Shown here piece by piece: positions 25,965 through 56,337 of a DNA stretch of 64,000 nucleotides. Source of the DNA: a virus. Numbering within the stretch: the stretch's first letter is position 1; each line of letters opens with the position of its first letter. A program made the translations under genes and the position numbers. The notes below the pieces were generated by a model. That model was not told the origin of the DNA. It saw only the letters and a list, made by a program, of their open reading frames with translations, and did no database searches. The stretch lies in the UHGV virus genome UHGV-1351770; one strand, written 5' to 3'.

Positions 25965-26279
25965 TTACAGATCGGGGCGTTCATCTTCGAAACAACCTGA
26001 GCTGATTCCTTCTCCGAATCCTACAAAGCCATCAAATTCATCATTTGAGATGTCCGCAATCATTGCTTCCATTTTCCTGATCTCCGAGGTTTTCATACCT
26101 GCTTTACTATTCTTATAATATTTGCGAGGGTTCCCACACATCCAACAAGAACAGATGCAAGGAGTAGTAGTGATAATACCTAACCGCTTAGGGCTTTCTT
26201 CATGTGGAAAGACTGTCCAGTACTTCTTGCGGTTGTTCTTCACACGTTGCCGGTGATGACGTCTTAATGCTCGATCCAC
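25965..26279 (-). CDS. Cys-rich protein (CICSCWMCGNPRKY)
   Basis: ORF. Confidence 0.4.
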   Translation of the reverse strand: MDRALRRHHRQRVKNNRKKYWTVFPHEESPKRLGIITTTPCICSCWMCGNPRKYYKNSKAGMKTSEIRKMEAMIADISNDEFDGFVGFGEGISSGCFEDERPDL

Positions 26280-26360
26280 ACATTTCTCCTAAAACTTGGG
26301 AGATAAATGGAGTTTGCTCGACTACCTTGCGTAGTTCGGAGAAACCATATCCAAACCCCA

Positions 26361-26729
26361 TTACATCGCCTGAGTAAATGTACGACTAATAACGTCGTTC
26401 TGTTGTTCACGAGTCAATGCGTTAAATCGAACAGCATAGCCAGAGACACGGATAGTCAATTGAGGATATTTTTCAGGATGTTTCTGTGCATCCAAAAGCT
26501 GATCACGGCTTAACACATTGACATTTAGGTGCTGACCCCCTTCGATTTGAGGGGCGACTTCCACTTTGACTTCACGGAAGGCTTCGGGATCGAATTGTGG
26601 TGTGATACCTTCTAGATCTTCAACTAGAACTTTCTGTTTAAGTTCACCATTGTCGGAGTATAGCTGAATAATCTGATTTTCATGAACAAGGTTAATTACG
26701 CCAGATTTAAGATTTTGATATGCTTTCAT
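26361..26729 (-). CDS. GrcA (YfiD)-like autonomous glycyl radical cofactor protein (122 aa)
   Basis: C-terminal [43 protein letters not shown] matches E. coli GrcA / PFL glycyl-radical domain nearly residue for residue. Confidence 0.7.
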
Positions 26730-26752
26730 TAGATCTCCCCGATGTTAGAATT

Positions 26753-26828
26753 TGGTAGTTAGTAGTGGATTTGAACCACTGTAGTCGCTCCGTATGAAGG
26801 AGGTGCATAACCACTCTGCCAACTAACT
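26753..26828 (-). tRNA. tRNA-Met (anticodon CAT)
   Basis: Manual cloverleaf fold: 7-bp acceptor, T-loop TTCAAAT, anticodon loop TTCATAC, encoded CCA. Confidence 0.75.
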
Positions 26829-26924
26829 ATTATGTTTTACTAGACTAAGTAAGTATTCTTTATACTCTTTGGACCAATTAGCTTTTTTAAACTTTCCTGG
26901 ACGCATAGTCTTAGTTCCTAAATT

Positions 26925-27001
26925 TGGTACTCCGGGAGGGATTTAAACCCCCGATCTCTCGGTTATCAGCCGAGTGCTTTAGATCGCTAAGCTACCGAAG
27001 C
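26925..27001 (-). tRNA. tRNA-Ile (GAT)
   Basis: Manual fold: D-stem GCTT/AAGC, anticodon stem CTCGG/CCGAG, loop CTGATAA. Confidence 0.8.
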
Positions 27002-27751
27002 ATTAACATTTTACAGTAGAACGTTTACCATTTCTAGGCGCACCTGGAAGTCGAGCACGTTCTGCCATTCTTCTCTTAATCTTTGAGATATTTTCTAGTG
27101 TTTGTTCTTCAGGCTTAATGCCTGAAACACTACACCACTGATTACCATCCCATGCAGTAATGATCATAACACCATTACCCATAATCTTTTCTGTGAAAGT
27201 AATTCTCATTATAGCAACTCGTCTAAGCAAGAGGTATATTTAAATTTACCATCTTTATCTACTTTGATTTCAACCTCCGCTCGTGGTACTTGACGAACTA
27301 CACCATGAATCATCTTATAGCGAATGCCTTTAGCTGGTTCACGATCTTTTGGAAATACTTGCTTAACCGTTACTACCTTGTACTCATCATGCGGTGTTAG
27401 TACAACTACTTGATCGCCCTCTTTGATTTTCCAAGAGCCAGGAAATTCGTAAGTATAACGTTGACCACCAGTTTGGAACACAACAGAAAGATAACGTTTC
27501 ATTTGGTTTCCCTCTCATTAATTTATATAAATATTATAACAAGAAATAAGAGAGAAGGCAAATGAATTTTTAATAAAGTTTAGTCACTTCATAAACTATA
27601 CTACGAGATTCTTTATTACGTTGTATTAAATTAGCGTATGCTTCTTCAGCTTCATTTTTAGTATTAAAGTCTATAACGTGGGAGGTATTAGTTCTGTTTG
27701 ATTGGCTATACCAGATAACTACTAGGAGTTTAAACATACTAGTCCTTAAAT

Positions 27752-27838
27752 TGGTGCTGGGCACAGGATTCGAACCTGCAACGGGATTACTCCTCCTGAT
27801 TACAAATCAGGTGCATTCAACCATTCTGCCAACCCAGC
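27752..27838 (-). tRNA. 87-nt class II-type tRNA (3-bp D-stem, 11-nt D-loop, 15-nt variable arm, A73) carrying anticodon TGT (Thr codons)
   Basis: Manual fold: acceptor GCTGGGT/GCCCAGC, anticodon stem CCTGA/TCAGG, loop TTTGTAA. Confidence 0.55.
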
Positions 27839-27846
27839 AGAACCCG

Positions 27847-28011
27847 TTATTTCAACGGGATTTCTTTTTCAATAACAGGAGACTTATCAGTCATGACTGT
27901 CATTGCCATTTGTTGTAGAAATTCAAAGGTGAAGGCTACACGTTCTTCACCAATCTCTACTTCTACACGTTTCTTTTGTTTGTCGATCTTAACTTTTAGG
28001 TTATCAGCCAT
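27847..28011 (-). CDS. Hypothetical protein (54 aa)
   Basis: ORF below track cutoff; manual translation. Confidence 0.3.
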   Translation of the reverse strand: MADNLKVKIDKQKKRVEVEIGEERVAFTFEFLQQMAMTVMTDKSPVIEKEIPLK

Positions 28012-28255
28012 TAGAGATTACAGTACTGGTAGTTGGCAGTATTACAGATGAAGCAACAGTGTTTAAATGCTTTCTCCAGTCTAGGTTAAATTGTTTTCGA
28101 AACTCTTCATAAGGTTCTTCTGGATAAAAGCTAAAACCTCCTTTCTCATCATTTAGGATAACAGAGCCGTCAGTTTGTTCGTATGCTCGGTATGTTTCTC
28201 CAATAATAATAACTCGTTTATCGGTACTTTTATTACGAAACTCGAAAACGTGCAT
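28004..28255 (-). CDS. Hypothetical protein (83 aa)
   Basis: ORF. Confidence 0.45.
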   Translation of the reverse strand: MHVFEFRNKSTDKRVIIIGETYRAYEQTDGSVILNDEKGGFSFYPEEPYEEFRKQFNLDWRKHLNTVASSVILPTTSTVISNG

Positions 28256-28261
28256 AATGTT

Positions 28262-28337
28262 TCCTTAAAGTTGGAGCGGCTAGAGGGAATCGAACCCTAC
28301 TCAGCGAGGCTTGGAAGGCCTGCGACACAACCCGTGT
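28262..28337 (-). tRNA. tRNA-Gly (TCC)
   Basis: Manual fold; anticodon loop CTTCCAA; T-loop TTCGATT. Confidence 0.7.
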
Positions 28338-28345
28338 GCTTAACC

Positions 28346-28421
28346 GCTTATTGTTTGGCTGGAGAAGGAGGAATTGAACCTACCATTAACGGAGTCAAAG
28401 GCCGTTGTGCTAACCGTTACA
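28346..28421 (-). tRNA. tRNA-Gln (TTG)
   Basis: Manual fold; acceptor TGGAGAG/TTCTCCA; loop CTTTGAC. Confidence 0.7.
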
Positions 28422-28427
28422 CTACTC

Positions 28428-28503
28428 TCCAATTATTTGGCTGGGATGCCACGGATCGAACGTGGAACCTTCGGAGTCAGAGGCCGACGATCTGCCAATT
28501 GAT
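28428..28503 (-). tRNA. tRNA-Gln (CTG)
   Basis: Manual fold; perfect acceptor and T-stem; D-stem GATC/GATC; loop CTCTGAC. Confidence 0.75.
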
Positions 28504-28525
28504 CTACATCCCAATAATTTTTATT

Positions 28526-28720
28526 CTACGGAAAAATTATTGTTGGCTCAGATTCTTCCAAACGTTTGCCTTCATGATCTACTCGAATAACTCCGCATCC
28601 CTCGCAAATCACAACAGCACCGTTGCCTTCTTTAACTTCAGCTTCTGTAATCAAACCAGAAAGATCACCAGTATCTCTGCCCCACATATCAATGGAGCAT
28701 TGTTTGCAGAAATCAGCCAT
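28526..28720 (-). CDS. Small zinc-ribbon-like protein (CxxC..CxxC, 64 aa)
   Basis: ORF. Confidence 0.4.
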   Translation of the reverse strand: MADFCKQCSIDMWGRDTGDLSGLITEAEVKEGNGAVVICEGCGVIRVDHEGKRLEESEPTIIFP

Positions 28721-28745
28721 ATTTTATTTCCTATTTAAGTTAATT

Positions 28746-28822
28746 TGGGGTGGCTAGTGGAATTCGAATCCACATAGGCCTGATTCACAATCAGGATCAT
28801 TAACCAATTATGATATAGCCAC
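28746..28822 (-). tRNA. tRNA-His (GTG)
   Basis: Manual fold; acceptor GTGGCTA/TAGCCAC, discriminator C, loop TTGTGAA. Confidence 0.8.
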
Positions 28823-29191
28823 AATTGAAAACTCGCAGGGTTAGCGAAACCTTCCTCAATTAGCATGTTCTAGAATACTAATCAAGTTATCTCCTATTGC
28901 GCGCAGCTCAAGACGAGTACGAATTTTCAATTGTGGCGGCTCTCAGAAACTCTTCTACTCTAGTCTTAGCAGCTTACTCCCGAACGCATGTCGGGGAAGT
29001 CTTACCAAGAGCATCAAATAGCACCGTTACACTTTGAGCCATAGATATATCAAGAAGCAGAAGGACTTGAACCTTCACGAGATAGACCATTTATCTCAGC
29101 CGCTTTATGAGGTATGTTGCAGGGAGTGGATGTTCCCTATAAACCTTTTAGGCAGCCCCGTCTACCGATTCCGGCATACTTCAAGAATTTT

Positions 29192-29374
29192 TTATAAACC
29201 AGCAGAAGCCTCATTTAAAGCATCAACAATAGCCTGTTGTTGCGTCCATCCTCTACCAGTAGAATTAACATGTGGAAGATATACTTCCCAATAACCATCC
29301 TCTAGTAAGGTTATTTGTGCACTAAACTCTGTGCCATCATTTAGTGTAACCTTCACAGTTTTTGTTAAAGACAT
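29192..29374 (-). CDS. Hypothetical protein (60 aa)
   Basis: ORF. Confidence 0.35.
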   Translation of the reverse strand: MSLTKTVKVTLNDGTEFSAQITLLEDGYWEVYLPHVNSTGRGWTQQQAIVDALNEASAGL

Positions 29375-29390
29375 ATATTATCCTATAAGT

Positions 29391-29480
29391 TGGCAGAAGA
29401 TAATGGAGTCGAACCATCACCGTATCGCTACAGCGGGCTGGTTTTCAAGACCAGTTACGTACCACTACGTCCTATCTTCT
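29391..29480 (-). tRNA. tRNA-Ser (TGA), class II
   Basis: Manual fold; anticodon stem CTGGT/ACCAG, loop CTTGAAA; 19-nt variable arm; G73. Confidence 0.8.
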
Positions 29481-29486
29481 ATTGTT

Positions 29487-29577
29487 TGGCGGAAGAGGAG
29501 AGACTTGAACTCTCAAGCCGTTTTACCAGTCAGCCACTTTCCAAGCGGTTTTCGTCACCAATTCGATTTGCTCTTCC
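29487..29577 (-). tRNA. tRNA-Ser (GGA), class II
   Basis: Manual fold; perfect acceptor and T-stem; loop TTGGAAA; long variable arm; G73. Confidence 0.65.
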
Positions 29578-29688
29578 AATAATAAGATGATGCCTCTATC
29601 ACACCAGGCAGTTACGCCTCGCTGGGATTCGAACCCATTAAAACAGCTCAACCGAGATAGTAGGTTTAATTTACTCTGACCATCAAAT

Positions 29689-29773
29689 TTGGTGGGGCTA
29701 GGGAGACTCGAACTCCCACGCATTTAAGCTACGGAATCTAAGGCCGTATTGTCTACCAGTTCCAGCATAGCCC
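29689..29773 (-). tRNA. tRNA-Leu (TAG), class II
   Basis: Manual fold; acceptor GGGGCTA/TAGCCCC, A73, T-stem GGGAG/CTCCC, long variable arm. Confidence 0.75.
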
Positions 29774-29778
29774 CGAAT

Positions 29779-29852
29779 TTGGTGGAGAAAGAGGGAGTTG
29801 AACCCTCGTCTTCTGCGTGCAAAGCAGATGTTCTACCATTAAACTATATCCC
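29779..29852 (-). tRNA. tRNA-Ala (TGC)
   Basis: Manual fold; anticodon stem TCTGC/GCAGA, loop TTTGCAC; acceptor has one U-U mismatch. Confidence 0.7.
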
Positions 29853-30232
29853 CAAATTCTTTAGTTTACTAAGGCTATTAGCTCGGCGTAACTACAGCAC
29901 CTTCGCTTCGAGCGGAAGGAACTGCGTCATCTCGCAAACCCAATACACTATTCAGTTGCCGCTGAATCTAGTGGACTAATCTAGAACTTCTCCCGAATCG
30001 TAGGGATCGTGCTTTTTGGCAGCCAGTCCTAGGTCGAGCTAATACCTTAGTGAACTAAATTGATGGATATCAGACTAATTTTGCTACGACGTTTATCCTG
30101 GGGATCTCTTTTTCGGTAGCTCTGCTAGTGTAGACGTCATACACCTGGTATCTAGGCAGCTATTTTCGCATCAATTTATATACATATTATATCAAGAAAT
30201 TAAGCATCAAGCAACTGCGTTTTTCTTGAAAT

Positions 30233-30311
30233 TGGTAGATCGCCTGGGACTCGAACCCAGAACCTTCCGATTAAAAGTCGGATGCTACTAAACCTATTGA
30301 GCTAGCGATCT
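30233..30311 (-). tRNA. tRNA-Lys (TTT)
   Basis: Manual fold; anticodon stem TCCGA/TCGGA, loop CTTTTAA. Confidence 0.75.
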
Positions 30312-30312
30312 A

Positions 30313-30480
30313 TTAGTAACCATTGTATACTTCTTTAATAGAGTGAACTTTCAGGTAAGGGTGATTAGTACTAAACTCTACCATTACTTCATCCCAATTT
30401 TTACCATAATGAGCGAGTAAGGATTTTGATGTATTCTTACCTAACCGTTTGTCACTTACTACTAATCGAAATACTTTCAT
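30313..30480 (-). CDS. Hypothetical protein (56 aa)
   Basis: ORF below track cutoff; GAGGAT RBS. Confidence 0.35.
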   Translation of the reverse strand: MKVFRLVVSDKRLGKNTSKSLLAHYGKNWDEVMVEFSTNHPYLKVHSIKEVYNGY

Positions 30481-30500
30481 TTCGAAATCCTCTATTAAAA

Positions 30501-30577
30501 TGGAAGCGGGTGCAGGAATCGAACCTACCTCTTTCTAGCTTATGAGACTAGCGATCTCTACCAGAGATCTAACCCGC
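30501..30577 (-). tRNA. tRNA with CAT anticodon (Met, fMet or lysidine-Ile)
   Basis: Manual fold; D-stem ATCT/AGAT, anticodon stem CTAGT/GCTAG, loop CTCATAA. Confidence 0.7.
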
Positions 30578-30584
30578 AATTGTT

Positions 30585-30662
30585 TGGTCTCCGTGGGAGG
30601 ATTTGAACCCCCGACCCTATCGCCCCAAACGAAACGCTCTGGCCAAACTGAGCTACACGGAG
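30585..30662 (-). tRNA. tRNA-Pro (TGG)
   Basis: Manual fold; D-stem GCTC/GAGC, loop TTTGGGG with G37. Confidence 0.7.
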
Positions 30663-30666
30663 AATA

Positions 30667-30825
30667 TTATTTCTTCAACCACAACAAAGATAAGCCCAGC
30701 ATACTAAAGCCGCTAACTAATCCGATACATTTTTCTTCTATAGTAAAAGTATTTAGATTAAATGCTGTTATAGCTATTGGCACACACCATAATGCCATAA
30801 AAACTTGAGCTATCTTGTGTTTCAT
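30667..30825 (-). CDS. Small membrane protein (about 52 aa)
   Basis: ORF below cutoff; GAAGGAAAG RBS; hydrophobic. Confidence 0.35.
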   Translation of the reverse strand: MKHKIAQVFMALWCVPIAITAFNLNTFTIEEKCIGLVSGFSMLGLSLLWLKK

Positions 30826-31278
30826 TTTGCTTTCCTTCTCTTCACTTTATAAAATATATTATACAGAGAATTAGGCAGAATAGCAAATGAATTTTTAATA
30901 AATTTACTTATTGTGTAGGCCACCTGGAGGCTATGAACCCCACGGCTGACAAAGAAGTTTGCGAGACCTCTCTTAAATGCCAGAATAGACCCGCCGATCT
31001 ATCGGAACCTACATAATAAGTAAACTTTATAGTGTCATTCTAGACAGGACTCGAACCTGTTATCACTTGTGCGGACTTACGAGAACCATTCTTTCACTCG
31101 AATCGAACGAGCTTCTGCCCTCGCCAAGCTGGTTTCCCCATCAACCACGCTAGAATGTTTAATTGTTTTCAGTGCAAGAGTCCGAGTCTTGGACACGACC
31201 GCTTCGCAAGTACATAGGCAGCTTATCATGAGTCAGCACTTCCGAATTGCTAGCTCCGTGCTCTGCACTGAAATTTTG

Positions 31279-31626
31279 TTAATTTAATAGTAAAGTACGA
31301 TCTACTTCACCATTAATTGTTCGGCATTCTTCTGGGATTGCCGGAGTGGCCTTATATTCCCACCATTCAGAACCGTCGTATTCACCACGTTCTAACCAAG
31401 TTCCATCAGTAAACCACACGTTACCATAAAGCAATTGCCCACCGAAACCAGAATCATATTTAAAGTCTAGATTATTTAGAAAATCTTCAATATCTTTTTC
31501 TGTATAACCTATGGGTAATACCCAAACTTCTTTGTCCCCATAATAACCGAATTCTATCTTAATACACTTAACTTTAGAATTAATATTCTTTAGGGCAAGT
31601 AACAACTCTTCTTTAGCATTAATCAT
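31279..31626 (-). CDS. Hypothetical protein (115 aa)
   Basis: ORF. Confidence 0.45.
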   Translation of the reverse strand: MINAKEELLLALKNINSKVKCIKIEFGYYGDKEVWVLPIGYTEKDIEDFLNNLDFKYDSGFGGQLLYGNVWFTDGTWLERGEYDGSEWWEYKATPAIPEECRTINGEVDRTLLLN

Positions 31627-31652
31627 AGCATATTTCTCGTGCTAGTTTAGTT

Positions 31653-31729
31653 TGGCGCGACCGATGGGATTCGAACCCACATTCTCTCCCGTGACAGGGG
31701 AGTACCATTACCAAGCCAGCCCCGGTCGC
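31653..31729 (-). tRNA. tRNA-Asp (GTC)
   Basis: Manual fold; perfect acceptor GCGACCG/CGGTCGC; anticodon stem CTCCC/GGGAG, loop CTGTCAC. Confidence 0.8.
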
Positions 31730-31738
31730 ATAATTCAT

Positions 31739-31924
31739 TTACTCAGCTTTGAGTTTTTCAATAGCTGCATTAAGTTCCTTAAGAAACTCTTTTCGTACAT
31801 TAAGACGGTTGAGACTTACTAATATATCATGTTTAAGTTCTTCGATGTATTTCTTCTCAACTTCAATATTGTTGATAGTGCTATCACGATGAACTTCTAG
31901 CTGCGCAATTACATTCTTGGACAT
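31739..31924 (-). CDS. Hypothetical coiled-coil protein (61 aa)
   Basis: ORF. Confidence 0.35.
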   Translation of the reverse strand: MSKNVIAQLEVHRDSTINNIEVEKKYIEELKHDILVSLNRLNVRKEFLKELNAAIEKLKAE

Positions 31925-32026
31925 GCTTGTTTCCTCAGTTATTAATGAAAGTGGTATCTGTGGCTGAATTCGATGTCAGCAATGATAGCTGGTTGGCTAC
32001 CGGTTTACTTAACTCTACACAGAATT

Positions 32027-32109
32027 TGGCGGGCCGTGTAGGATTCGAACCTACGTTGTCTTTCGACATGGATTAACAGTCCACCGCCAAACCGCTTGGC
32101 TAACGACCC
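32027..32109 (-). tRNA. 83-nt tRNA with anticodon GTT (Asn codons), a 13-nt variable arm (GTC-GAAA-GAC hairpin) and G73
   Basis: Manual fold; D-stem GCCA/TGGC; anticodon stem GTGGA/TCCAT, loop CTGTTAA; perfect T-stem. Confidence 0.6.
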
Positions 32110-32261
32110 TAAATTTACATTGCTGACTAGGATTTTCACCTAGACGGAGTTAGCACCGTAGCGTGTAGCGGCATACCTCTCCAAACCGTGCCTCATCTTT
32201 CAATTACGGAGACAGTGTTCCTACGCGTGCCTGAATTGATTTAACAATTCTTTCAGCAAAT

Positions 32262-32337
32262 TGGACGACCGCATGAGATTTGAACTCACATAAAAAGGAT
32301 TTGCAATCCTTCGCCTAAGCCATTCAGCCAACGGTCG
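32262..32337 (-). tRNA. tRNA-Cys (GCA)
   Basis: Manual fold; anticodon stem AAGGA/TCCTT, loop TTGCAAA. Confidence 0.75.
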
Positions 32338-32386
32338 ATTTATCTTGTTCTGTCATGTTGCTTCTCCAGTTCAATTTATGTAATTA

Positions 32387-32695
32387 TTATACAGAACTTT
32401 TGGAAACTAAGCAACTACATTTTTTAAGAATTTGATGCCTTTCTTTTTTCTTCTTATATTTCCACGTTAATGGATTCTGTCGATTATAAACGCTTGAGAT
32501 CTTTGTCTCGTCAAAGTTCTTCAATATCATGTAATCACAGGATAATTGTTCTAGTGGAATGTGATCCCCGTCAAAAGCGTATACATAAGGCTGTTGACTA
32601 ACACGATAATGATAGACTTTGTTAATTCTACGTTTCAGCGACTTATCCGCGCAGTAAATAAAGAAGTTTTCAGGATGCATCAGCATCTCCTTCAA
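32387..32695 (-). CDS. Hypothetical basic protein (102 aa)
   Basis: ORF. Confidence 0.4.
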   Translation of the reverse strand: MKEMLMHPENFFIYCADKSLKRRINKVYHYRVSQQPYVYAFDGDHIPLEQLSCDYMILKNFDETKISSVYNRQNPLTWKYKKKKERHQILKKCSCLVSKSSV

Positions 32696-32697
32696 TT

Positions 32698-32772
32698 TGG
32701 TGCACCCTGTTCGTATCGAACGAACCTCTCAAGCTCTTCAGGCAAGCGCTAATCCATCTCAGCTAAAGGTGC
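32698..32772 (-). tRNA. tRNA, probable Phe (GAA); anticodon stem has two U-U mismatches
   Basis: Manual fold; good acceptor, D-stem and T-stem GTTCG/CGAAC; loop CTGAAGA. Confidence 0.5.
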
Positions 32773-32779
32773 AAATTTT

Positions 32780-32851
32780 TGGCAGGGGTAAAGGTATTCG
32801 AAACCTTTTCATGGGTTTTGGAGGCCCATTTGCAACCTATGCGTACCCCAA
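32780..32851 (-). tRNA. tRNA-Trp (CCA) with non-canonical short D-arm
   Basis: Manual fold; T-arm AAGGT-TTCGAAT-ACCTT; anticodon loop CTCCAAA. Confidence 0.5.
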
Positions 32852-32859
32852 TTATTAAT

Positions 32860-32934
32860 TGGCACACCCAACGAGGATCGAACTCGTGTTCCCACTGTGA
32901 AAGAGTGGTGTCCTAACCGCTAGACGATAGGTGC
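32860..32934 (-). tRNA. tRNA-Glu (TTC)
   Basis: Manual fold; anticodon stem CCACT/AGTGG, loop CTTTCAC; T-stem ACGAG/CTCGT. Confidence 0.75.
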
Positions 32935-32942
32935 ATTAAATT

Positions 32943-33030
32943 TGGTGGGCGTTAATGGAGTCGAACCACTCGAGTCGCAATGACCAGGGATTTACAATCC
33001 CCTCCGCTACCACTTACGGAATAAACGCCC
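32943..33030 (-). tRNA. tRNA-Tyr (GTA), class II
   Basis: Manual fold; acceptor GGGCGTT/AACGCCC, A73; loop TTGTAAA; 14-nt variable arm. Confidence 0.8.
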
Positions 33031-33158
33031 ATATTTAGAAGTATTCAAATACTAGTTTAAACACTTTTAAATATGTTTCCAAATTAGATAACTATTATAT
33101 CAAGTTTTAAGGCACTGAGCAAGTCAGATTTTGAAGAACTTGCTCAGTGCTGTATTAG

Positions 33159-33434
33159 TTAGTCGAATTTAGGAGTGACAGTTAAGGAGAACGGAAGTTC
33201 GAAAACCTCTTCACCCTCATTACTAACGGTAACTACACGACCTTTAAGTTCAGACATTGAAATATCAATATCAGCTTTTGCATCTGGAGCCATGCCAGCT
33301 TCAATACACTTAGCTTTAACTTCCGGTAAAAGCTCTACATTATAGAGATAAAGCCACTCAATCTCACCTTCCCAGTCTTCCCAGGATTTACAGATTGCAC
33401 TTTCAATACCAGTTGCTACAACACGATTTTGCAT
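33159..33434 (-). CDS. Hypothetical acidic protein (91 aa)
   Basis: ORF. Confidence 0.45.
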   Translation of the reverse strand: MQNRVVATGIESAICKSWEDWEGEIEWLYLYNVELLPEVKAKCIEAGMAPDAKADIDISMSELKGRVVTVSNEGEEVFELPFSLTVTPKFD

Positions 33435-33524
33435 TAGTTAATTCCTTCATCAATTTATATAACTATTATATCAGAAATTTAAAGTAAAAGGCAAGTACAT
33501 TTTTAAAAATTCTGTTTGGAGGAG

Positions 33525-33731
33525 CTAAACTCCAGATTCTTCGGCCAAGTCTAAACTAATAAGAGTTATAGCCATAATTGCCGCACCATGTTCTTTTTCT
33601 CCGGTGTTTTTAGCAGAGTCTATAATATCCTTAATCTGTTCGTAATAACTTTTTACTTCTTGTTCAATGCCTGCCTCGGCTATCATGCCTTTAGCCATGA
33701 ATCGTTGCATGGTAATTTCAGGATTAGCCAT
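33525..33731 (-). CDS. Hypothetical protein (68 aa)
   Basis: ORF. Confidence 0.4.
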   Translation of the reverse strand: MANPEITMQRFMAKGMIAEAGIEQEVKSYYEQIKDIIDSAKNTGEKEHGAAIMAITLISLDLAEESGV

Positions 33732-33891
33732 GTTGTTTCTCCAGTTTCATTTTTAATAGTTTACAGATGAAATCAACGTCTTCATCTGTGCCTAAGTCTC
33801 TATCCTCAAGGGTCGCCTTGAAGTTTTTCGTCAATTCCATGAGGATGACTTCCCTAGAACGACGTGTTGGAGGCGGAGGAGGTCTATACAT
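33724..33891 (-). CDS. Pro-rich small protein (55 aa)
   Basis: ORF below cutoff; AAGGAA RBS; coupled to downstream gene. Confidence 0.3.
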   Translation of the reverse strand: MYRPPPPPTRRSREVILMELTKNFKATLEDRDLGTDEDVDFICKLLKMKLEKQHG

Positions 33892-33905
33892 CTTAATTCC
33901 TTAAT

Positions 33906-33982
33906 TTGGTAGGGGTGGTGGGATTCGAACCCACAAAACCTGAATTTTAAGTCCAGTACCTATGCCAATTCGATTACACCCC
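33906..33982 (-). tRNA. 77-nt class I-type tRNA with anticodon TAA (Leu codons UUA/UUG) and A73, lacking the long variable arm of canonical tRNA-Leu
   Basis: Manual fold; perfect T-stem GTGGG/CCCAC; anticodon stem CTGGA/TTCAG, loop CTTAAAA; weak D-arm. Confidence 0.5.
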
Positions 33983-34084
33983 CATGTAATCAGTTTATTA
34001 GTTGATACATATTATAGCCTAGAGAAAACCCTACTACTAATCCTACGAACCAACCAATATAATAATCTTTTAGTTTCACAGGTA

Positions 34085-34270
34085 TTATCCTCGTTCAATA
34101 TCTAGGGAAATACCGCAGTTAGGATTAATACCTGTACCCTTGCAATTTGGGCAAACCCAGATATTGCAAAAAGTATCTCCTGCTTCTGCATCAGAACTTT
34201 CACCAATTCCCCTACACTCAGGGCAGGCACATTCTTCTAGCTCTTGCTTGAGTTCTTGAAACTTAGACAT
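34085..34270 (-). CDS. Zinc-ribbon protein (CPECRG..CPNCKG, 61 aa)
   Basis: ORF. Confidence 0.45.
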   Translation of the reverse strand: MSKFQELKQELEECACPECRGIGESSDAEAGDTFCNIWVCPNCKGTGINPNCGISLDIERG

Positions 34271-34279
34271 ATAGTCTCC

Positions 34280-34468
34280 TTAGTCAATTACTTTTGAGGC
34301 TTCAAGGTAGTCAATATAGTGTACGTTTTCTACCGTAATCATATAATCCGCCACTTTATCCATAGCTTGAGCTTCAGAGGTAGCTCTGACTAATCTATAT
34401 CCTTTTTTATATTCATCCGGGTATTCTCTATCTTGAATAAACACAACATAAACTATATATAGATCCAT
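34280..34468 (-). CDS. Hypothetical protein (62 aa)
   Basis: ORF. Confidence 0.4.
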   Translation of the reverse strand: MDLYIVYVVFIQDREYPDEYKKGYRLVRATSEAQAMDKVADYMITVENVHYIDYLEASKVID

Positions 34469-34486
34469 TTGTGACCTCTATTTAAT

Positions 34487-34564
34487 TGGTGGCTCCCCGA
34501 GGATTCGAACCTACGTACCTTCCGGTTATGAGCCGGGTGCTCATACCATATGAGCTTGAGAACC
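34487..34564 (-). tRNA. tRNA with CAT anticodon (third CAT species), weak T-stem
   Basis: Manual fold; acceptor GGTTCTC/GGGAGCC with 2 GU; perfect D-stem GCTC/GAGC; anticodon stem CCGG/CCGG, loop CTCATAA. Confidence 0.55.
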
Positions 34565-34570
34565 AAAATC

Positions 34571-34659
34571 TGGCGGAAGAAGTGGGAATCGAACCCACAA
34601 GGCTATATTTCAAACCGACAGATTAGCAATCTGCTGCAATACCATTATGCTATTCTTCC
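34571..34659 (-). tRNA. tRNA-Ser (GCT), class II
   Basis: Manual fold; acceptor GGAAGAA/TTCTTCC, G73; anticodon stem GCAGA/TCTGT, loop TTGCTAA; 19-nt variable arm. Confidence 0.75.
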
Positions 34660-34680
34660 GAATTTATAAGATATATTATA

Positions 34681-35202
34681 TTAGAAATTTAACTTCATAG
34701 CAAGAAAATTTTTCAAGTTTTCGGTAGACATCTCATCCACATCTACAGGAGAAACAAATCCATTTAATTGTCTAGCAAACTTTTCACCAGCAGGATCATT
34801 GTCCCCAACAGCTACCACTTTAAAAGGTAGTAATTTCAGTTGCTTTAATAACGCTTTTCCTGGAGAAGAGCCCAACATTGCCAGGGCTGGATAACCAGCA
34901 TTATGTAACGCAACTGCCTTAAATACAGATTCAGCGATCAATACTACTTTTTCATCTCCATTGAGAGTTTCTAGTCCCCATACACACTGGGTAGTAGAAT
35001 AAGTAAAGTATTTAGCTTCAAAGGGGCACTTACCATGACCTTTTGGAGCAGAAGGATTATAAGTTTGATAGCCCCTCAACATCCCAGAGAAGTCATACAA
35101 CGGGACTGTTAGCCATCCCTCCGGACTTAACCAGCAATGATATTTATCTGTATCAAACCCTCTAGATAAGAGGTGCTGTGTTAGCTCATCAACATTCATA
35201 TC
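34681..35202 (-). CDS. Stand-alone Toprim-domain protein (VVAVGDNDPAGEKFARQL), 173 aa
   Basis: Toprim DxD motif in translation; start set at MNVDEL directly after promoter/leader TATAAT..ATAAATTTGAGAGAGGAATCAGAT. Confidence 0.5.
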   Translation of the reverse strand, partial: DMNVDELTQHLLSRGFDTDKYHCWLSPEGWLTVPLYDFSGMLRGYQTYNPSAPKGHGKCPFEAKYFTYSTTQCVWGLETLNGDEKVVLIAESVFKAVALHNAGYPALAMLGSSPGKALLKQLKLLPFKVVAVGDNDPAGEKFARQLNGFVSPVDVDEMSTENLKNFLAMKLNF

Positions 35203-35229
35203 TGATTCCTCTCTCAAATTTATAGATAT

Positions 35230-35258
35230 ATTATACAGAGAATTTAGCATTCAAGCAA
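35230..35258 (-). promoter_or_regulatory. Early promoter (minus): -35 TTGCTT, 17 bp, -10 TATAAT
   Basis: Seen in sequence. Confidence 0.6.
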
Positions 35259-35464
35259 TCAAATTTTTTAACTTTTAGAGGAAAATCATATGGCACTTAA
35301 GGGTAGCAGATAAGTGGTGAGGACCAAAATTTGTGACCCCACTAAAAATCCGGGGGCAATTTTTAAAGACCCCTTGACATTTTCGCGGGGGTAGTGTAAA
35401 GTATATGTTATGGATGAGTGATCAAAGAGACACACATTTTCTATATACTAGGAGGTGTCAAAAA

Positions 35465-36451
35465 ATGACAGAAGAAGTAGCTAAGAGTCCTGAGACCGTC
35501 GCTAGCGTTGCAGCAGAACTGCACCGTCACGAGGAATCAGATAAGAAAAAGTGGGAGAAGGTCAGAGCCTACGAAGAAAAACATCGTGAACACGATGATG
35601 AAGAAGATGACGATGATGAGCATTGTCATAAATATGGAAAACATAAAATGCAAGAACCAGTAAACGTATTCACTAGTGGCTTCCCTGGCCTACTGGGTGG
35701 TTACCCAGCAAACGCAGGTGCTTTCGGTGGGGAAGGTATGGGTCTATTCGGAGCTATCCTAATCGGTGCTCTATTAACAGGCGGATTCGGTGGTTTCGGT
35801 GGATTCGGTGGACGTGGTGTAGTTGGTGAAGGTACCGCAGTTGATGCAGTACTTCAGAACCAAGATACCGCTAGTATTCTAGCAGCTATTAATACTACTC
35901 GTACAGAAGCTAACCAGGGTACTGGAGCTGTTTTAAGCGCAGTTAACAATGGTTTTAGCCAGACATCCCAAAACCAGAGCCGTGATACTCAGTCTGTACT
36001 AACTACGATCTATGGTACAGGTGCTAATCTGTCTAATCAGATCTGCCAGGAAACTCGCAACGTTATTCAGGGTCAGTTCGATCTTTCTCGCCAGATTGAT
36101 CAATCTTTCGCAGCTAACCAGATAGCTCGTGCACAAGATAAGTTTGATTCTGCACAGATCGCTTTCCAGCAGACTTTACAAACTAATAACCAGTTTGCCG
36201 CTGTTCAGGCTCAGATGTGTGCTAACCAGAACTCTCTGGAACGTCAGATTGCTGAATGTTGCTGTGAACTTCAGACTGCGATCGCTGGTGTAACTACTGC
36301 GCGTATCCAGGATGAGTTAGATGCATGTCGCCTACGTGAAGCAATCGCTGCAGGTAGCGGTGCTAACGGTCAGGTAATTAATCAAATCGCTTTAAGTCTT
36401 GGTGCTATCACTCAGACTCTGGCTGGTCTGCAGGCTAAACTGCCTGCTTAA
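35465..36451 (+). CDS. Acidic N-terminus, hydrophobic glycine-zipper segment (GGFGGFGGFGG), Q/N/S/T-rich repetitive C-terminal protein (328 aa)
   Basis: ORF; start moved to ATG 35465 with AGGAGGTG RBS; low-complexity composition seen in translation. Confidence 0.6.
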   Translation: MTEEVAKSPETVASVAAELHRHEESDKKKWEKVRAYEEKHREHDDEEDDDDEHCHKYGKHKMQEPVNVFTSGFPGLLGGYPANAGAFGGEGMGLFGAILIGALLTGGFGGFGGFGGRGVVGEGTAVDAVLQNQDTASILAAINTTRTEANQGTGAVLSAVNNGFSQTSQNQSRDTQSVLTTIYGTGANLSNQICQETRNVIQGQFDLSRQIDQSFAANQIARAQDKFDSAQIAFQQTLQTNNQFAAVQAQMCANQNSLERQIAECCCELQTAIAGVTTARIQDELDACRLREAIAAGSGANGQVINQIALSLGAITQTLAGLQAKLPA

Positions 36452-36472
36452 TATTAAGGGGAGGAGCCCATT

Positions 36473-36889
36473 ATGAGTAAATATGGTTTTGTAAATAACG
36501 GACTTAATCAAAGTATGGGCTCCCAGCAGCCCATTCCGGGTCTGGATAACCCCTACTTACAACAATTGCAACAGCGTTTAGCAGAAGCGCAACAGATGCA
36601 GCAACAACTCCAGCAAAACCCTGGAAGTGTGAGTCCTATGCAAATGATGCAGCAAATGGGCGGGCAGTCGCAAATGCCTCAACAAATGCAGCAACAGGTG
36701 CCGCAGCAGCAAGTTCAGCAACAAACCCAACAACCGCAGGTTTCTGCGGAAGGACAGGCAGTACTAGCCCTTTTCGAAGACTTCGCAAAGACAGAGGATG
36801 GGAAACAGCTTGTATCACTTATGGGTAAGTTTAATAGCTTCTGCCAAAGCCAGGTTGCAAAAGCTCAAAATGGTGGTAATAACTCCTAA
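36473..36889 (+). CDS. Gln-rich protein (138 aa; QQMQQQVPQQQVQQQTQQPQ)
   Basis: ORF with GGGGAGGAG RBS. Confidence 0.55.
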   Translation: MSKYGFVNNGLNQSMGSQQPIPGLDNPYLQQLQQRLAEAQQMQQQLQQNPGSVSPMQMMQQMGGQSQMPQQMQQQVPQQQVQQQTQQPQVSAEGQAVLALFEDFAKTEDGKQLVSLMGKFNSFCQSQVAKAQNGGNNS

Positions 36890-36898
36890 GGAGGAATT

Positions 36899-37093
36899 AT
36901 GTGTTGCAGAAAATCTGTTTCGTGCTGCCCAATGCCTGTAGCACGTTGTTGCTCTCCAGCAATGTTTACGCAAATACCGGCGTTCAATCCGTTTGCCTTT
37001 AAGCCTACTCTTATCCTGCCCCCTAGAGTAGATTTTCAGTCAAGATTGGCCTCCCGTATGGGTGGTTGCTGTAATAAGAGTATATGGTTCTAA
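36899..37093 (+). CDS. Cys-rich small protein (64 aa; CC..CC..CC..CC)
   Basis: ORF with AGGAGGAA RBS 1 codon after upstream stop. Confidence 0.45.
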   Translation: MCCRKSVSCCPMPVARCCSPAMFTQIPAFNPFAFKPTLILPPRVDFQSRLASRMGGCCNKSIWF

Positions 37094-37107
37094 AGAACCA
37101 AACAATA

Positions 37108-37145
37108 AAGCCCCTAGTCGAAAGACTTAGGGGCTTTTCTTTTAT
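37108..37145 (+). terminator. Rho-independent terminator (AAGCCCCTAG..CTTAGGGGCTT plus TTTCTTTT)
   Basis: Seen in sequence. Confidence 0.7.
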
Positions 37146-37150
37146 CTTAA

Positions 37151-37189
37151 ATACAGAAAAGCCCTGCGCTCTCCAGGGAACGCAGGGCT
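37151..37189 (-). terminator. Rho-independent terminator for minus strand (AGCCCTGCG..CGCAGGGCT, U-run in minus transcript)
   Basis: Seen in sequence; convergent with plus-strand terminator. Confidence 0.65.
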
Positions 37190-37213
37190 TACTTCAGATG
37201 TTACGTGCGGATA

Positions 37214-38172: not shown

Positions 38173-38206
38173 ATGTTTCCTTTGTTTTAGTTACAGTTAA
38201 TAAAAT

Positions 38207-38281
38207 TGGCCGAGGTGACAGGATTCGAACCTGCATAAAGAAATTTAGAAGACTCCTGCCTCTCCCTTAGACTACACCCCG
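38207..38281 (-). tRNA. tRNA-Arg (TCT)
   Basis: Manual fold; T-stem GCAGG/CCTGT; anticodon stem GGAGT/ATTTC with GU pairs, loop CTTCTAA. Confidence 0.6.
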
Positions 38282-51937: not shown

Positions 51938-53812
51938 ATGAATCGTAATGAAGAACTAAAATATAAAGAAATGCAGGCGTTAATTAGAAACTGCAAAGAG
52001 ATTATCGAAGGGTCAGCAGATGAAGAGCTGCTGTTTAATAATGCTAATAAACCCTCAGAACGTTTCCCTACACAAAGGGATATGCTTGCAGGTGAATTGA
52101 GTAAGTATCTGATTCTAGAAGAAATGCCAATTCAGATTCGAAATGCTCATATGATTGGGGATATTCATTTCCATGATGCTGATTATGCTGCATTAGGCAT
52201 GACTAACTGTTGTCTGGTAGCTCTGGAAGATATGTTGAAGAATGGTATGAAGGTTGGTAATGCTGAAATTAGCACTCCAAACTCTATCACTACTGCGGCG
52301 GCTATTACTGCCCAGATTATCACTCAGGTTAGCTCCCATCAGTATGGTGGTACTTCTGTAGATCGCCTTGATGAAGTATTAGCCCCTTATGTTCGTAAAT
52401 CCTATGACAAAAATCATGCGTTTGCAAAACGTTGGACTAAGGATGAAGCCAAAGCATCAGTAATGGCTACGGAGATGACTGAAAAGGAAGTCTATGATGC
52501 CTGTCAGGGTCTGGAGTATGAAATCAATACGATGTTCAACTCTAATGGTCAGAGTCCATTTATTACCTTTGGTTTTGGTCTAGGAACTTCTTGGGAAGCA
52601 CGTCTAGTACAGAAAGCAATACTGAAAGTACGCATGGATGGTTTAGGTATCAATAAACGTACAGCTATCTTCCCTAAACTAGTATTTGTACTTCGTGATG
52701 GCGTAAATATGAAGCCAGGAGATGTTAATTATGACATCAAGAAGTTAGCTATGAAATGTACTGCTGAACGTATGTATCCAGATTATATCAGCTATGATAA
52801 GGTTGTGGAAGTTACTGGAGACTATAAAGTTTCTATGGGCTGCCGTTCATTCCTAGCTGCTACAGAAGATGGTGAAACTGCCGGTCGTAATAACTTAGGT
52901 GTTGTTTCTGTAAACTTGCCTAGAATTGCTATCGAAGCTGAAGGAAATATTGACCTATTCTTTGATTTGCTTGAGCTACGTGTAGATACAGCATTAAAAG
53001 CGTTGGAGTGGAGAGTTGATCGCTTAAAATACATTCAAGCTAAAGCTGCACCCATCCTCTATATGTCAGGAGCCTTTGGGTTGCGCTTGGAGCCTGATGA
53101 ATATGTATTCGATCATTTCTATAACCGTGCTTCTGTATCTCTAGGGTATATTGGCTGCCATGAAATGCTACAGTTCATGTTTGGCAAAGATGTAGACACA
53201 ATGTCCGAGACCTGCATCAAGTTTGTTCAGCGTGTATTGCAGTACATGCGGGATAGGGTCGATCAGAAGAAGGAAGAAACTAAATTAGGTTATAGCCTGT
53301 ATGCTACACCATCAGAATCCCTATGTGACCGTTTTTGTCGTCTAGACCGTGAATATTTCCCGGAGTATGAAGATATTCTGTCTAAAGGATACTACACTAA
53401 CTCTCACCACCTTGATGTGGAACGTAAAGTTGCTCCTAACGTGAAATTTGATTATGAGTCTAACTTTACTCCGATTGCTTCTGGTGGGTGTATTTCCTAC
53501 GTAGAATTACCGGATATGAAACGATTCCCAGATGCACTGGAATGGGTTATTAATTATGCTGCTAGTAAGGTTCATTACTTCGGTATTAATACCCCAGTGG
53601 ATTCTTGTGGTAAATGTGGATTCTTAGGTGAAACAATAGCATCCGAAGATGGATTTAAGTGCCCTATCTGTGGTAATCATGACCCCGAAACTCTTGAAGT
53701 AACTCGTCGAGTTTGTGGGTATCTTGGAAATCCTGGTGCTCGTCCATTTAACCCCGGCAAACAGCACGAGGTGATGGGCAGAGTGAAACATCAGGATATT
53801 CGAGCTAAATAA
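51938..53812 (+). CDS. nrdD: Anaerobic ribonucleotide reductase class III NrdD
   Basis: C-terminal glycyl radical motif RVCGYLG and preceding Zn-ribbon CxxC..CxxC; length 624 aa. Confidence 0.85.
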   Translation: MNRNEELKYKEMQALIRNCKEIIEGSADEELLFNNANKPSERFPTQRDMLAGELSKYLILEEMPIQIRNAHMIGDIHFHDADYAALGMTNCCLVALEDMLKNGMKVGNAEISTPNSITTAAAITAQIITQVSSHQYGGTSVDRLDEVLAPYVRKSYDKNHAFAKRWTKDEAKASVMATEMTEKEVYDACQGLEYEINTMFNSNGQSPFITFGFGLGTSWEARLVQKAILKVRMDGLGINKRTAIFPKLVFVLRDGVNMKPGDVNYDIKKLAMKCTAERMYPDYISYDKVVEVTGDYKVSMGCRSFLAATEDGETAGRNNLGVVSVNLPRIAIEAEGNIDLFFDLLELRVDTALKALEWRVDRLKYIQAKAAPILYMSGAFGLRLEPDEYVFDHFYNRASVSLGYIGCHEMLQFMFGKDVDTMSETCIKFVQRVLQYMRDRVDQKKEETKLGYSLYATPSESLCDRFCRLDREYFPEYEDILSKGYYTNSHHLDVERKVAPNVKFDYESNFTPIASGGCISYVELPDMKRFPDALEWVINYAASKVHYFGINTPVDSCGKCGFLGETIASEDGFKCPICGNHDPETLEVTRRVCGYLGNPGARPFNPGKQHEVMGRVKHQDIRAK

Positions 53813-54406: not shown

Positions 54407-54596
54407 GGGTTTAAACTCCGCTTTGGAAAACGCATTAATGCAGCACTGGGAAACTGGCTATAAGGATGGTGTTGAATCCTGCGCTACTATGCTAGAAGTT
54501 ATTGCTAATACCTTAATGGAGAAAGGTAACAAAGAATTAGCTGAGCTGTTAGACAGTATTGGGCAAAACTTTAGAGAACAGGTGAAAAATGCGTAG
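54375..54596 (+). CDS. Hypothetical protein (73 aa)
   Basis: ORF. Confidence 0.4.
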   Translation: MAFSKPMLPDKGLNSALENALMQHWETGYKDGVESCATMLEVIANTLMEKGNKELAELLDSIGQNFREQVKNA

Positions 54597-55897: not shown

Positions 55898-55899
55898 AT

Positions 55900-56328: not shown

Positions 56329-56337
56329 GGGGGCATA

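What the first reader, a model, noticed from the sequence alone, without database searches (positions are those of the whole stretch)
26361..26729. Phage-encoded GrcA (YfiD)-like spare glycyl-radical domain
The C-terminal 70 residues match E. coli GrcA and the PFL glycyl-radical domain almost exactly ([18 protein letters not shown]). GrcA replaces oxygen-cleaved radical domains of pyruvate formate-lyase. The phage also encodes the glycyl-radical enzyme NrdD (51938-53812) but no NrdG activase in this window. A phage GrcA could sustain host PFL or anaerobic metabolism during microaerobic infection, or exploit host PflA. It is uncommon cargo for a phage.
Basis: partly seen in the sequence, partly recalled or inferred. 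Interest (0 to 1): 0.55.

Follow-up and report, generated by a model that had tools for sequence, protein, structure and literature searches.

The report
Phage T5-type GrcA spare glycyl-radical protein
This is a real, intact 122-residue phage copy of the bacterial "spare part" protein GrcA/YfiD, which repairs oxygen-damaged pyruvate formate-lyase; the same gene is already annotated in phage T5 and over 1,500 other phage genomes, and its T4 counterpart was characterised in 2001, so it is ordinary.

Summary
ORF 26361..26729 on the minus strand encodes 122 aa. Its last 62 residues form a PFL-type glycyl-radical domain (Pfam PF01228, E=3.7e-18). They are 77% identical to E. coli GrcA and 79% identical to the PflB C-terminus. 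RVSGYAVRF is exact and the radical glycine is G97.

The window is the left ~64 kb of a T5-like phage (Tequintavirus). The gene is the homologue of T5.056, annotated in the T5 reference genome through the glycyl-radical InterPro domain. Database copies with 100% identical protein are labelled "pyruvate formate-lyase", and a 99.2% copy is labelled GrcA. Homologues occur in 1,585 of 50,697 phage records, covering T5-likes, T4-likes (vs.6 = Y06I) and phages with ~350-kb genomes, so it is not uncommon cargo. T4 Y06I was shown in 2001 to be activated by host PFL activase and to restore oxygen-cleaved PFL.

The gene is under strong purifying selection in T5-likes (dN/dS 0.07; 0.017 in the radical domain). 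It has its own Shine-Dalgarno site and sits 23 nt downstream of a tRNA-Met gene, so it is not a pseudogene fragment. tblastn finds no PflA or NrdG homologue in the window or in the whole T5 genome, so host activases must be used.

Verdict: already known, low interest. The physiological benefit to the phage has not been tested.

The parts
26361..26729 (-). grcA-like CDS (122 aa plus stop), the homologue of T5.056 and of T4 vs.6/Y06I
   Evidence: ORF list. PHROG 1209 matches the full length at 8e-48. NCBIfam GrcA TIGR04365 gives 3.5e-35. The protein is 100% identical in Salmonella phages Th1, HMD-7 and STP-SP2. dN/dS is 0.07 across 29 unique T5-like alleles.
26364..26549 (-). Glycyl-radical domain, aa 61-122. 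It corresponds to PflB 699-760 and to the catalytically sufficient part of E. coli YfiD (truncYfiD, residues 61-127).
   Evidence: Translation. 49/62 identical to PflB and 48/62 to GrcA. Pfam PF01228. The AF2 model matches 6owr and the PFL C-terminus. dN/dS is 0.017.
26439..26441 (-). Codon of Gly97, the predicted radical-bearing glycine within RVSGYAV (26430-26450)
   Evidence: Translation. It aligns with G734 of PflB and G102 of GrcA.
26550..26729 (-). N-terminal half, aa 1-60. It diverges from cellular GrcA and begins MKAYQ as in T4 vs.6. It is predicted to be beta-rich.
   Evidence: BLASTP against E. coli GrcA aligns only from aa 51 onward. Against T4 vs.6 the alignment is full length at 52% identity. 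dN/dS is 0.11. AF2 pLDDT is 77-88 with five strands. A cellular Vibrio GrcA control gives a similar beta-rich N-terminal half.
26735..26740 (-). Shine-Dalgarno sequence GGGGAG, 5 nt upstream of the ATG
   Evidence: Read directly from the sequence.
26753..26828 (-). tRNA-Met gene 23 nt upstream on the same strand. It rules out a longer upstream reading frame and is a conserved neighbour.
   Evidence: ARAGORN. tRNA-Met is the nearest upstream same-strand tRNA in 27 of 30 T5-like loci.
27533..27561 (-). Sigma-70-like promoter (TTGCCT-17-TGnTATAAT). It is the likely counterpart of T5 early promoter P11, which heads the unit ORF-ORF-tRNA-Ile-tRNA-Met-grcA.
   Evidence: Consensus scan, 10 of 12 matches. 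The position of P11 comes from the T5 reference annotation. The correspondence is an inference, not shown.
51938..53812 (+). nrdD (class III ribonucleotide reductase), the second glycyl-radical protein of the phage. Context only.
   Evidence: Pfam NRDD 2.6e-172 and Gly_radical 9.4e-23. 54% identical to E. coli NrdD. No similarity to the GrcA-like protein.

Best explanation
[quoted passage not shown] It is probably transcribed with the early tRNA cluster. When oxygen cleaves the host's active pyruvate formate-lyase (PflB) at Gly734, the protein is proposed to dock on the cleaved enzyme and replace the lost C-terminal radical domain with its own residues 61-122. The host activase PflA would then install a radical on its Gly97, because the phage has no activase of its own. 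This would restore conversion of pyruvate to acetyl-CoA and formate, sustaining fermentative energy supply in microaerobic, gut-like conditions during infection. Shown here: the gene is intact, it carries a PFL-type radical domain, it is under strong purifying selection, it is homologous over its full length to the validated T4 protein, and the phage lacks an activase. Inferred: activation by PflA, docking on cleaved PflB, and any benefit to the phage.
For: The ORF is intact, has its own SD site and a tRNA gene 23 nt upstream. The glycyl-radical domain is detected at E=3.7e-18. The best NCBIfam hit is GrcA. The C-terminal 62 aa are 79% identical to PflB 699-760 and 77% to GrcA, and the RVSGYAV motif is exact. 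That heptapeptide is, from my own knowledge of Vey et al. 2008 (listed among the references seen), the peptide bound by PFL activase. The protein aligns over its full length, at 52% identity, with T4 vs.6, annotated GrcA in the T4 record. Y06I of T4, which I equate with vs.6 from my own knowledge, is activated by PFL-AE and restores cleaved PFL (PMC8683613 citing Wagner 2001). Removing residues 1-60 of E. coli YfiD leaves catalysis essentially unchanged, so the C-terminal domain suffices for catalysis, and that region is fully present here. dN/dS is 0.07 overall and 0.017 in the radical domain. The AF2 model's C-terminal part superposes on YfiD and on the PFL C-terminus. tblastn finds no PflA or NrdG homologue in the window or the whole T5 genome. 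The E. coli host carries pflA-pflB.
Against: There is no experiment on any T5-type protein. No paper in the searched library combines glycyl radical with T5 terms. The N-terminal half, which in YfiD mediates binding to cleaved PFL, shows no BLAST-detectable similarity to E. coli GrcA residues 1-50. The protein scores 121 bits against NCBIfam GrcA, below the 170-bit cutoff, but the validated T4 protein also falls below it at 151 bits. From my own knowledge, not checked here, the T5 tRNA region is deletable in the laboratory, so the gene is probably dispensable under standard aerobic culture.
Confidence: 0.8

Rival explanations
1. The protein is a decoy or modulator. It binds host PflA or cleaved or intact PflB without productive repair, for example to titrate the activase or redirect host fermentation, using its divergent N-terminal half.
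For: The N-terminal half differs from host GrcA yet is itself under purifying selection (dN/dS 0.11). Free YfiD is a poor PflA substrate.
Against: The radical glycine and the whole catalytic radical domain are almost invariant (dN/dS 0.017), which is more than simple binding would need. The T4 homologue restores activity.
Confidence: 0.07
2. The protein is a spare part for a different glycyl-radical enzyme, either host TdcE (2-ketobutyrate formate-lyase) or the phage's own NrdD, rather than PflB.
For: Several annotators call it 2-ketobutyrate formate-lyase. The phage carries NrdD, which is also oxygen-sensitive. The authors of PMC8683613 speculate that spare parts for other GREs may exist.
Against: It has no detectable similarity to the phage NrdD (E=5.8), whereas identity to the PflB C-terminus is 79%. 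TdcE could be an additional target, but it is a paralogue of PflB, so the mechanism would be the same.
Confidence: 0.08
3. It is a non-functional captured fragment of host pflB or grcA, that is, a pseudogene or hitch-hiker.
For: Only the C-terminal 62 aa resemble PflB. The gene lies in a region of small genes of unknown function.
Against: The frame is intact in all 31 alleles examined, with dS 0.37 against dN 0.025. GC content (0.41) matches the phage (0.39) and DNA identity to E. coli grcA is only 70.5%. It has its own SD and start codon. 1,418 phage records cover at least 80% of the protein.
Confidence: 0.02

Closest known systems
Bacteriophage T4 Y06I (gene vs.6), an autonomous glycyl radical cofactor (Wagner et al. 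2001, BBRC 285:456)
   Same: It is a phage-encoded protein of ~120 aa. Both begin with MKAYQ, the alignment is full length (52% identity), both fall in PHROG-type phage family 1209, and both have a PFL-type radical domain with RVSGYAVRF.
   Different: The 3' 190 nt of T4 vs.6 are 95.8% identical in DNA to E. coli grcA, a recent host-derived mosaic. The window gene is only 70.5% identical there and has phage-like GC content. T4-like phages carry nrdG next to nrdD. T5 has no activase detectable by tblastn. The T5-type protein itself has not been tested biochemically.
E. coli GrcA/YfiD (P68066; NMR structure 6OWR)
   Same: It is a stand-alone protein of ~125 aa. The C-terminal 62 aa are 77% identical, and the glycine loop and flanking helices are conserved. 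AF2 predicts a similar beta-rich N-terminal half for the phage protein and for a cellular Vibrio GrcA control.
   Different: The N-terminal 50 residues are not alignable by BLAST. The protein falls below the TIGR04365 cutoff (121 vs 170 bits). It carries phage-type signature residues (QL.DAQ and DVISRTFT, against TL.DAV and DVIARTFT in cellular GrcA).
C-terminal glycyl-radical domain of pyruvate formate-lyase PflB (residues 699-760)
   Same: 79% identity over 62 aa. The structural match has rmsd 2.7 A over 50 columns.
   Different: The protein lacks the ~700-residue catalytic barrel with Cys418/Cys419. TIGR01255 scores 86 bits against a cutoff of 994. Database labels such as 'pyruvate formate-lyase' or 'formate acetyltransferase' for this gene are therefore misnomers.
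GrcA homologues of phages with ~350-kb genomes (Klebsiella phage K64-1, Salmonella phage SE_PL, Yersinia phage fHe-Yen9-03, Vibrio phage D479)
   Same: After the T5-likes themselves, these are the best-scoring database hits (123-128 bits for the named ones), ahead of the first named cellular GrcA at 116 bits. They share the phage-type C-terminal signature.
   Different: Their N-terminal halves resemble T4 vs.6 (..KQ.LSGEH.GTI..ARIIVSKTF) more than they resemble the T5 type.

Membership tests
[quoted passage not shown] | A small stand-alone protein (~120-130 aa), not a fragment of a full-length glycyl-radical enzyme | tested here: met
   The ORF is 122 aa with its own SD site, and a tRNA-Met gene lies 23 nt upstream. 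The same length is conserved in T5-like phages.
[quoted passage not shown] | A C-terminal glycyl-radical domain with the PFL-type fingerprint RVSGYAV and the radical glycine | tested here: met
   Pfam PF01228 at 3.7e-18. RVSGYAV is at aa 94-100 and the glycine is G97.
[quoted passage not shown] | A C-terminal ~60 aa close enough to PflB 696-759 to replace it structurally | tested here: met
   49/62 residues are identical to PflB. The AF2 model superposes on the PFL C-terminus and on 6owr.
[quoted passage not shown] | An N-terminal ~60-residue region homologous to that of GrcA, which mediates binding to cleaved PFL | tested here: inconclusive
   There is no BLAST alignment to E. coli GrcA residues 1-50. 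However, the protein aligns over its full length to T4 Y06I, the multiple alignment bridges through phage intermediates, and AF2 predicts comparable beta-rich N-terminal halves.
[quoted passage not shown] | A score above the curated NCBIfam TIGR04365 equivalog cutoff (170 bits) | tested here: not met
   The score is 121 bits. The validated T4 Y06I also fails at 151 bits, and large-phage homologues score 135-137 bits, while E. coli GrcA scores 234 bits. The cutoff is tuned to cellular GrcA and does not discriminate function among the phage proteins.
[quoted passage not shown] | Radical installation by PFL activase and restoration of activity to oxygen-cleaved PFL | not testable with these tools
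   This needs EPR and coupled enzyme assays. It has been shown only for E. coli YfiD and T4 Y06I.
Pyruvate formate-lyase / 2-ketobutyrate formate-lyase (the label many database records give this gene) | A ~760-aa ten-stranded barrel with catalytic Cys418/Cys419, scoring above the TIGR01255 cutoff (994 bits) | tested here: not met
   Only aa 61-122 match the last 62 positions of the model, at 85.9 bits.
Class III ribonucleotide reductase subunit (the label given to the 67-aa truncated version in Citrobacter phage YZU-L1) | Sequence similarity to NrdD or NrdG | tested here: not met
   BLASTP against the window's NrdD gives E=5.8. There is no NrdG-like sequence in the window.

The most novel reading that the evidence does not exclude
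The phage GrcA and the phage NrdD may form one functional module. Class III ribonucleotide reductases of the E. coli/T4 type use formate as reductant (PMC4493059), and PFL is, from my own knowledge, the cell's main source of formate. By keeping host PFL alive after oxygen exposure, the phage GrcA would secure the reductant for its own anaerobic dNTP synthesis. T5-type phages would then depend on host activases (PflA, NrdG) for both radical proteins. Separately, the divergent but selected N-terminal half might give the phage protein different targeting rules from host GrcA.
Probability: 0.2. Interest if true: 0.4.

Novelty: already known. Interest (0 to 1): 0.12.

Why it matters
It matters little as a discovery. 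Phage-encoded GrcA has been in the literature since 2001 for T4, and this exact protein is in public databases. What remains open is physiological. No one has shown what a virulent enteric phage gains from repairing a host fermentation enzyme, or whether that gain is linked to formate-dependent anaerobic dNTP synthesis. A practical point also follows: many phage records mislabel this gene as 'pyruvate formate-lyase', 'formate acetyltransferase' or 'ribonucleotide reductase subunit'.

Tried and rejected
(1) I looked for a phage-encoded activase. tblastn with E. coli PflA and NrdG against the window and the full T5 genome found nothing. The only CX3CX2C motif in the window lies in a 104-aa ORF (T5.055 homologue, 25965-26279) with no Pfam hit, which is too small for a radical-SAM enzyme.

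(2) I checked whether neighbouring genes hint at function. All belong to unknown-function PHROG or DUF families.

(3) The promoter and terminator scan was not above the shuffle expectation (11 found against 7.6 +/- 3.3). It gave only one plausible upstream promoter.

(4) I searched the literature for T5-specific work on this gene and found none. One search failed because a search term was too short.

(5) I considered that an ordered N-terminal beta-domain might be phage-specific. This was rejected because AF2 gives a similar beta-rich N-terminal half for a cellular Vibrio GrcA. The N-terminal half has no match among solved structures.

(6) I considered that failing the NCBIfam cutoff might argue against GrcA function. 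This was rejected because the validated T4 protein fails it too.

(7) I considered a spare part for NrdD. This was rejected because there is no sequence similarity.

(8) A rigorous test of grcA/nrdD co-occurrence across all phage genomes could not be done. The search tools return counts (1,585 and 2,925 records) but not their intersection.

Full report
**Observation.** The window contains an ORF at 26361..26729 on the minus strand. It starts with ATG and encodes 122 aa. It is preceded by GGGGAG 5 nt upstream of the ATG and by a tRNA-Met gene 23 nt upstream on the same strand, so no longer reading frame is possible. The translation carries RVSGYAVRF (aa 94-102; G97 is the candidate radical glycine) and [11 protein letters not shown]. 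Pfam Gly_radical matches at 3.7e-18, 66.4 bits against a cutoff of 22.2. The best NCBIfam model is GrcA TIGR04365 at 3.5e-35. The best solved-structure relatives are E. coli GrcA (6owr, 1.4e-30) and PflB (5e-27). Over the last 62 residues the protein is 48/62 identical to E. coli GrcA and 49/62 identical to PflB 699-760, with a 19-residue core ([19 protein letters not shown]) that is identical. 'Almost exactly' is therefore an overstatement, but the match is strong, specific and not low-complexity.

**What the window is.** The region is 96-97% identical in DNA to many Escherichia and Salmonella T5-like phages. The first 25 kb matches the A1, dNMP kinase, holin and endolysin part of Tequintavirus genomes. 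There are 21 tRNA genes between 26.7 and 38.3 kb. The gene is the homologue of T5.056 in the T5 reference genome. That record annotates it as 'putative acetyltransferase-related protein, identified by match to InterPro domain IPR001150', which is the glycyl-radical domain entry. The window gene matches the T5 gene at 334 of 369 nt. Proteins 100% identical to the window's are in Salmonella phages Th1, HMD-7 and STP-SP2. Other records label the gene 'autonomous glycyl radical cofactor GrcA', 'pyruvate formate-lyase', '2-ketobutyrate formate-lyase' or 'formate acetyltransferase'.

**How common it is.** tblastn finds a homologue in 1,585 of 50,697 phage records, and 1,418 of these cover at least 80% of the protein. 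About 430 are T5-likes at >=90% identity. About 1,000 are T4-like phages at ~50-56% identity, annotated vs.6 or GrcA. Others infect Aeromonas, Vibrio and Providencia. The protein database adds phages with ~350-kb genomes (K64-1, SE_PL, fHe-Yen9-03) and Vibrio phage D479.

**What is already known.** The T4 record annotates vs.6 as GrcA. Andorfer et al. 2021 (PMC8683613) summarise the work of Wagner et al. 2001. E. coli YfiD and T4 Y06I are ~14-kDa spare-part proteins. The PFL activase radicalises them, and they form a complex with oxygen-cleaved PFL that restores activity. These two are the only validated members. That Y06I is the product of vs.6 is my own knowledge, not checked here. The same paper shows that removing YfiD residues 1-60 leaves catalysis essentially unchanged, so the C-terminal domain suffices for catalysis. 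Residues 1-60 improve binding to cleaved PFL and raise radical installation about fourfold.

**Relation to the known proteins.**
- The window protein aligns with T4 vs.6 over its full length at 52% identity, and both begin MKAYQ.
- With E. coli GrcA, BLAST aligns only residues 51-122, at 74% identity.
- It falls below the NCBIfam GrcA equivalog cutoff (121 vs 170 bits). The validated T4 protein also falls below it (151 bits), as do large-phage homologues (135-137 bits), whereas E. coli GrcA scores 234 bits. The cutoff reflects the cellular N-terminus, not function.
- In a 69-sequence alignment, the T5 type shares C-terminal signature residues with other phage GrcAs ([13 protein letters not shown]) rather than with cellular GrcAs (TL.DAV, DVIARTFT).
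- AlphaFold2 gives a mean pLDDT of 78. It predicts a beta-rich N-terminal half (pLDDT 77-88) and a C-terminal helix/hairpin/helix unit. The C-terminal unit matches YfiD 6owr (E=2e-5) and the PFL C-terminus (rmsd 2.7 A over 50 columns).
- A control prediction for a cellular Vibrio GrcA gives a similar beta-rich N-terminal half. The predicted order is therefore not phage-specific and should not be over-read, given that NMR finds the isolated YfiD N-terminus disordered.

**Is it a functional gene?** I compared 31 T5-like genes, comprising 29 unique DNA sequences and 17 unique proteins. All frames are intact. Mean dS is 0.37 against dN 0.025, giving dN/dS of 0.07. For the radical domain dN/dS is 0.017, and for the N-terminal half it is 0.11. 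GC content (0.41) matches the phage (0.39). DNA identity to E. coli grcA over the conserved 3' half is only 70.5%. The gene is therefore a long-resident, selected phage gene, not a recent fragment or pseudogene.

**Context and mechanism.** In T5 the gene lies in the early tRNA region. It sits downstream of promoter P11 with tRNA-Ile and tRNA-Met, and upstream of T5.055 and a terminator. In the window, a matching sigma-70-like promoter sits at 27561-27533. tRNA-Met is the nearest upstream same-strand tRNA in 27 of 30 T5-like loci. Neighbouring ORFs all belong to families of unknown function. NrdD at 51938-53812 is confirmed. tblastn with E. coli PflA and NrdG finds nothing in the window or in the complete 121,750-bp T5 genome, whereas T4-likes carry nrdG beside nrdD. 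The most likely mechanism is that of T4 Y06I. Host PflA (pflA-pflB are present in E. coli) radicalises G97 once the protein has docked on oxygen-cleaved host PflB, and this restores pyruvate cleavage. This step is inferred from homology and was not tested here.

**Rivals.** I considered three alternatives.
- A decoy or inhibitor role. This is unlikely given the near-invariant radical domain and the activity of the T4 protein.
- A spare part for NrdD. There is no similarity (E=5.8). TdcE remains possible as an extra target.
- A dead fragment. This is contradicted by the selection analysis.

**Most novel reading not excluded.** E. coli/T4-type class III RNRs use formate as reductant (PMC4493059), and PFL makes formate. 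Phage GrcA may therefore protect the reductant supply for phage NrdD. Both genes are near-core in T5-likes, with ~390 NrdD and ~430 GrcA records at >=90% identity. I could not compute their co-occurrence across phage genomes.

**Verdict.** The feature is real and correctly identified, but it is already known. It is annotated in T5 and in hundreds of relatives, and it was characterised biochemically in T4. Interest is low.

Noticed in passing
L002:5558-5920 (T4 vs.6) compared with L003:4067-4450 (E. coli grcA): T4 vs.6 is a mosaic. Its 3' 190 nt are 95.8% identical in DNA to E. coli K-12 grcA, while its 5' part is only 46% identical. This points to recent recombination or gene conversion with the host gene. 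The T5-type gene shows no such patch.
   Followed up: partly
Proteins P0074, P0098, P0100, P0107, P0108, P0109, P0115, P0118: Many short-contig database 'GrcA' proteins, one cluster having 900 members, join an enterobacterial GrcA N-terminus to a PflB-type C-terminus (...KEQQQDVITRTFTQSM). They may be grcA/pflB gene conversions, but they look like assembly chimeras across a stretch I presume is near-identical in DNA between the two genes (not compared here).
   Followed up: no
window 25965-26279 (-) and 26200-26361 (-): Two overlapping ORFs lie just downstream of grcA. One is 104 aa (T5.055 homologue, phrog_4499) and carries a CICSCWMCGNPRK cysteine motif. The other is 53 aa (phrog_31464), and its ATG overlaps the grcA stop codon (TAATG). 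Public annotations disagree on which is real.
   Followed up: partly
window 54589-56727 (+): Downstream of nrdD lies a run of genes for a Sir2-family protein, a HAD_SAK_2 domain protein ('Swiss Army Knife RNA repair' HAD) and two DUF7415 proteins. The function of this cluster in T5-like phages is unclear.
   Followed up: no
window 26753-38281 (-): There are 21 tRNA genes, all on the minus strand, interspersed with small ORFs. The spacing between tRNA-Met and grcA varies from 13 to 417 nt among T5-like phages, because small ORFs are inserted or lost.
   Followed up: partly
Whole T5 genome (L040-L042) and window 51938-53812: T5-like phages encode NrdD, but tblastn finds no NrdG activase anywhere in the T5 genome. 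T4-like phages, in contrast, carry nrdG next to nrdD. The T5 NrdD must therefore be activated by host NrdG.
   Followed up: yes
Protein P0033 (Citrobacter phage YZU-L1): This is a 67-aa version of the T5-type protein that lacks the N-terminal half. It is annotated 'ribonucleotide reductase subunit'. It is either a mis-called start, a truncated allele or a misannotation.
   Followed up: no
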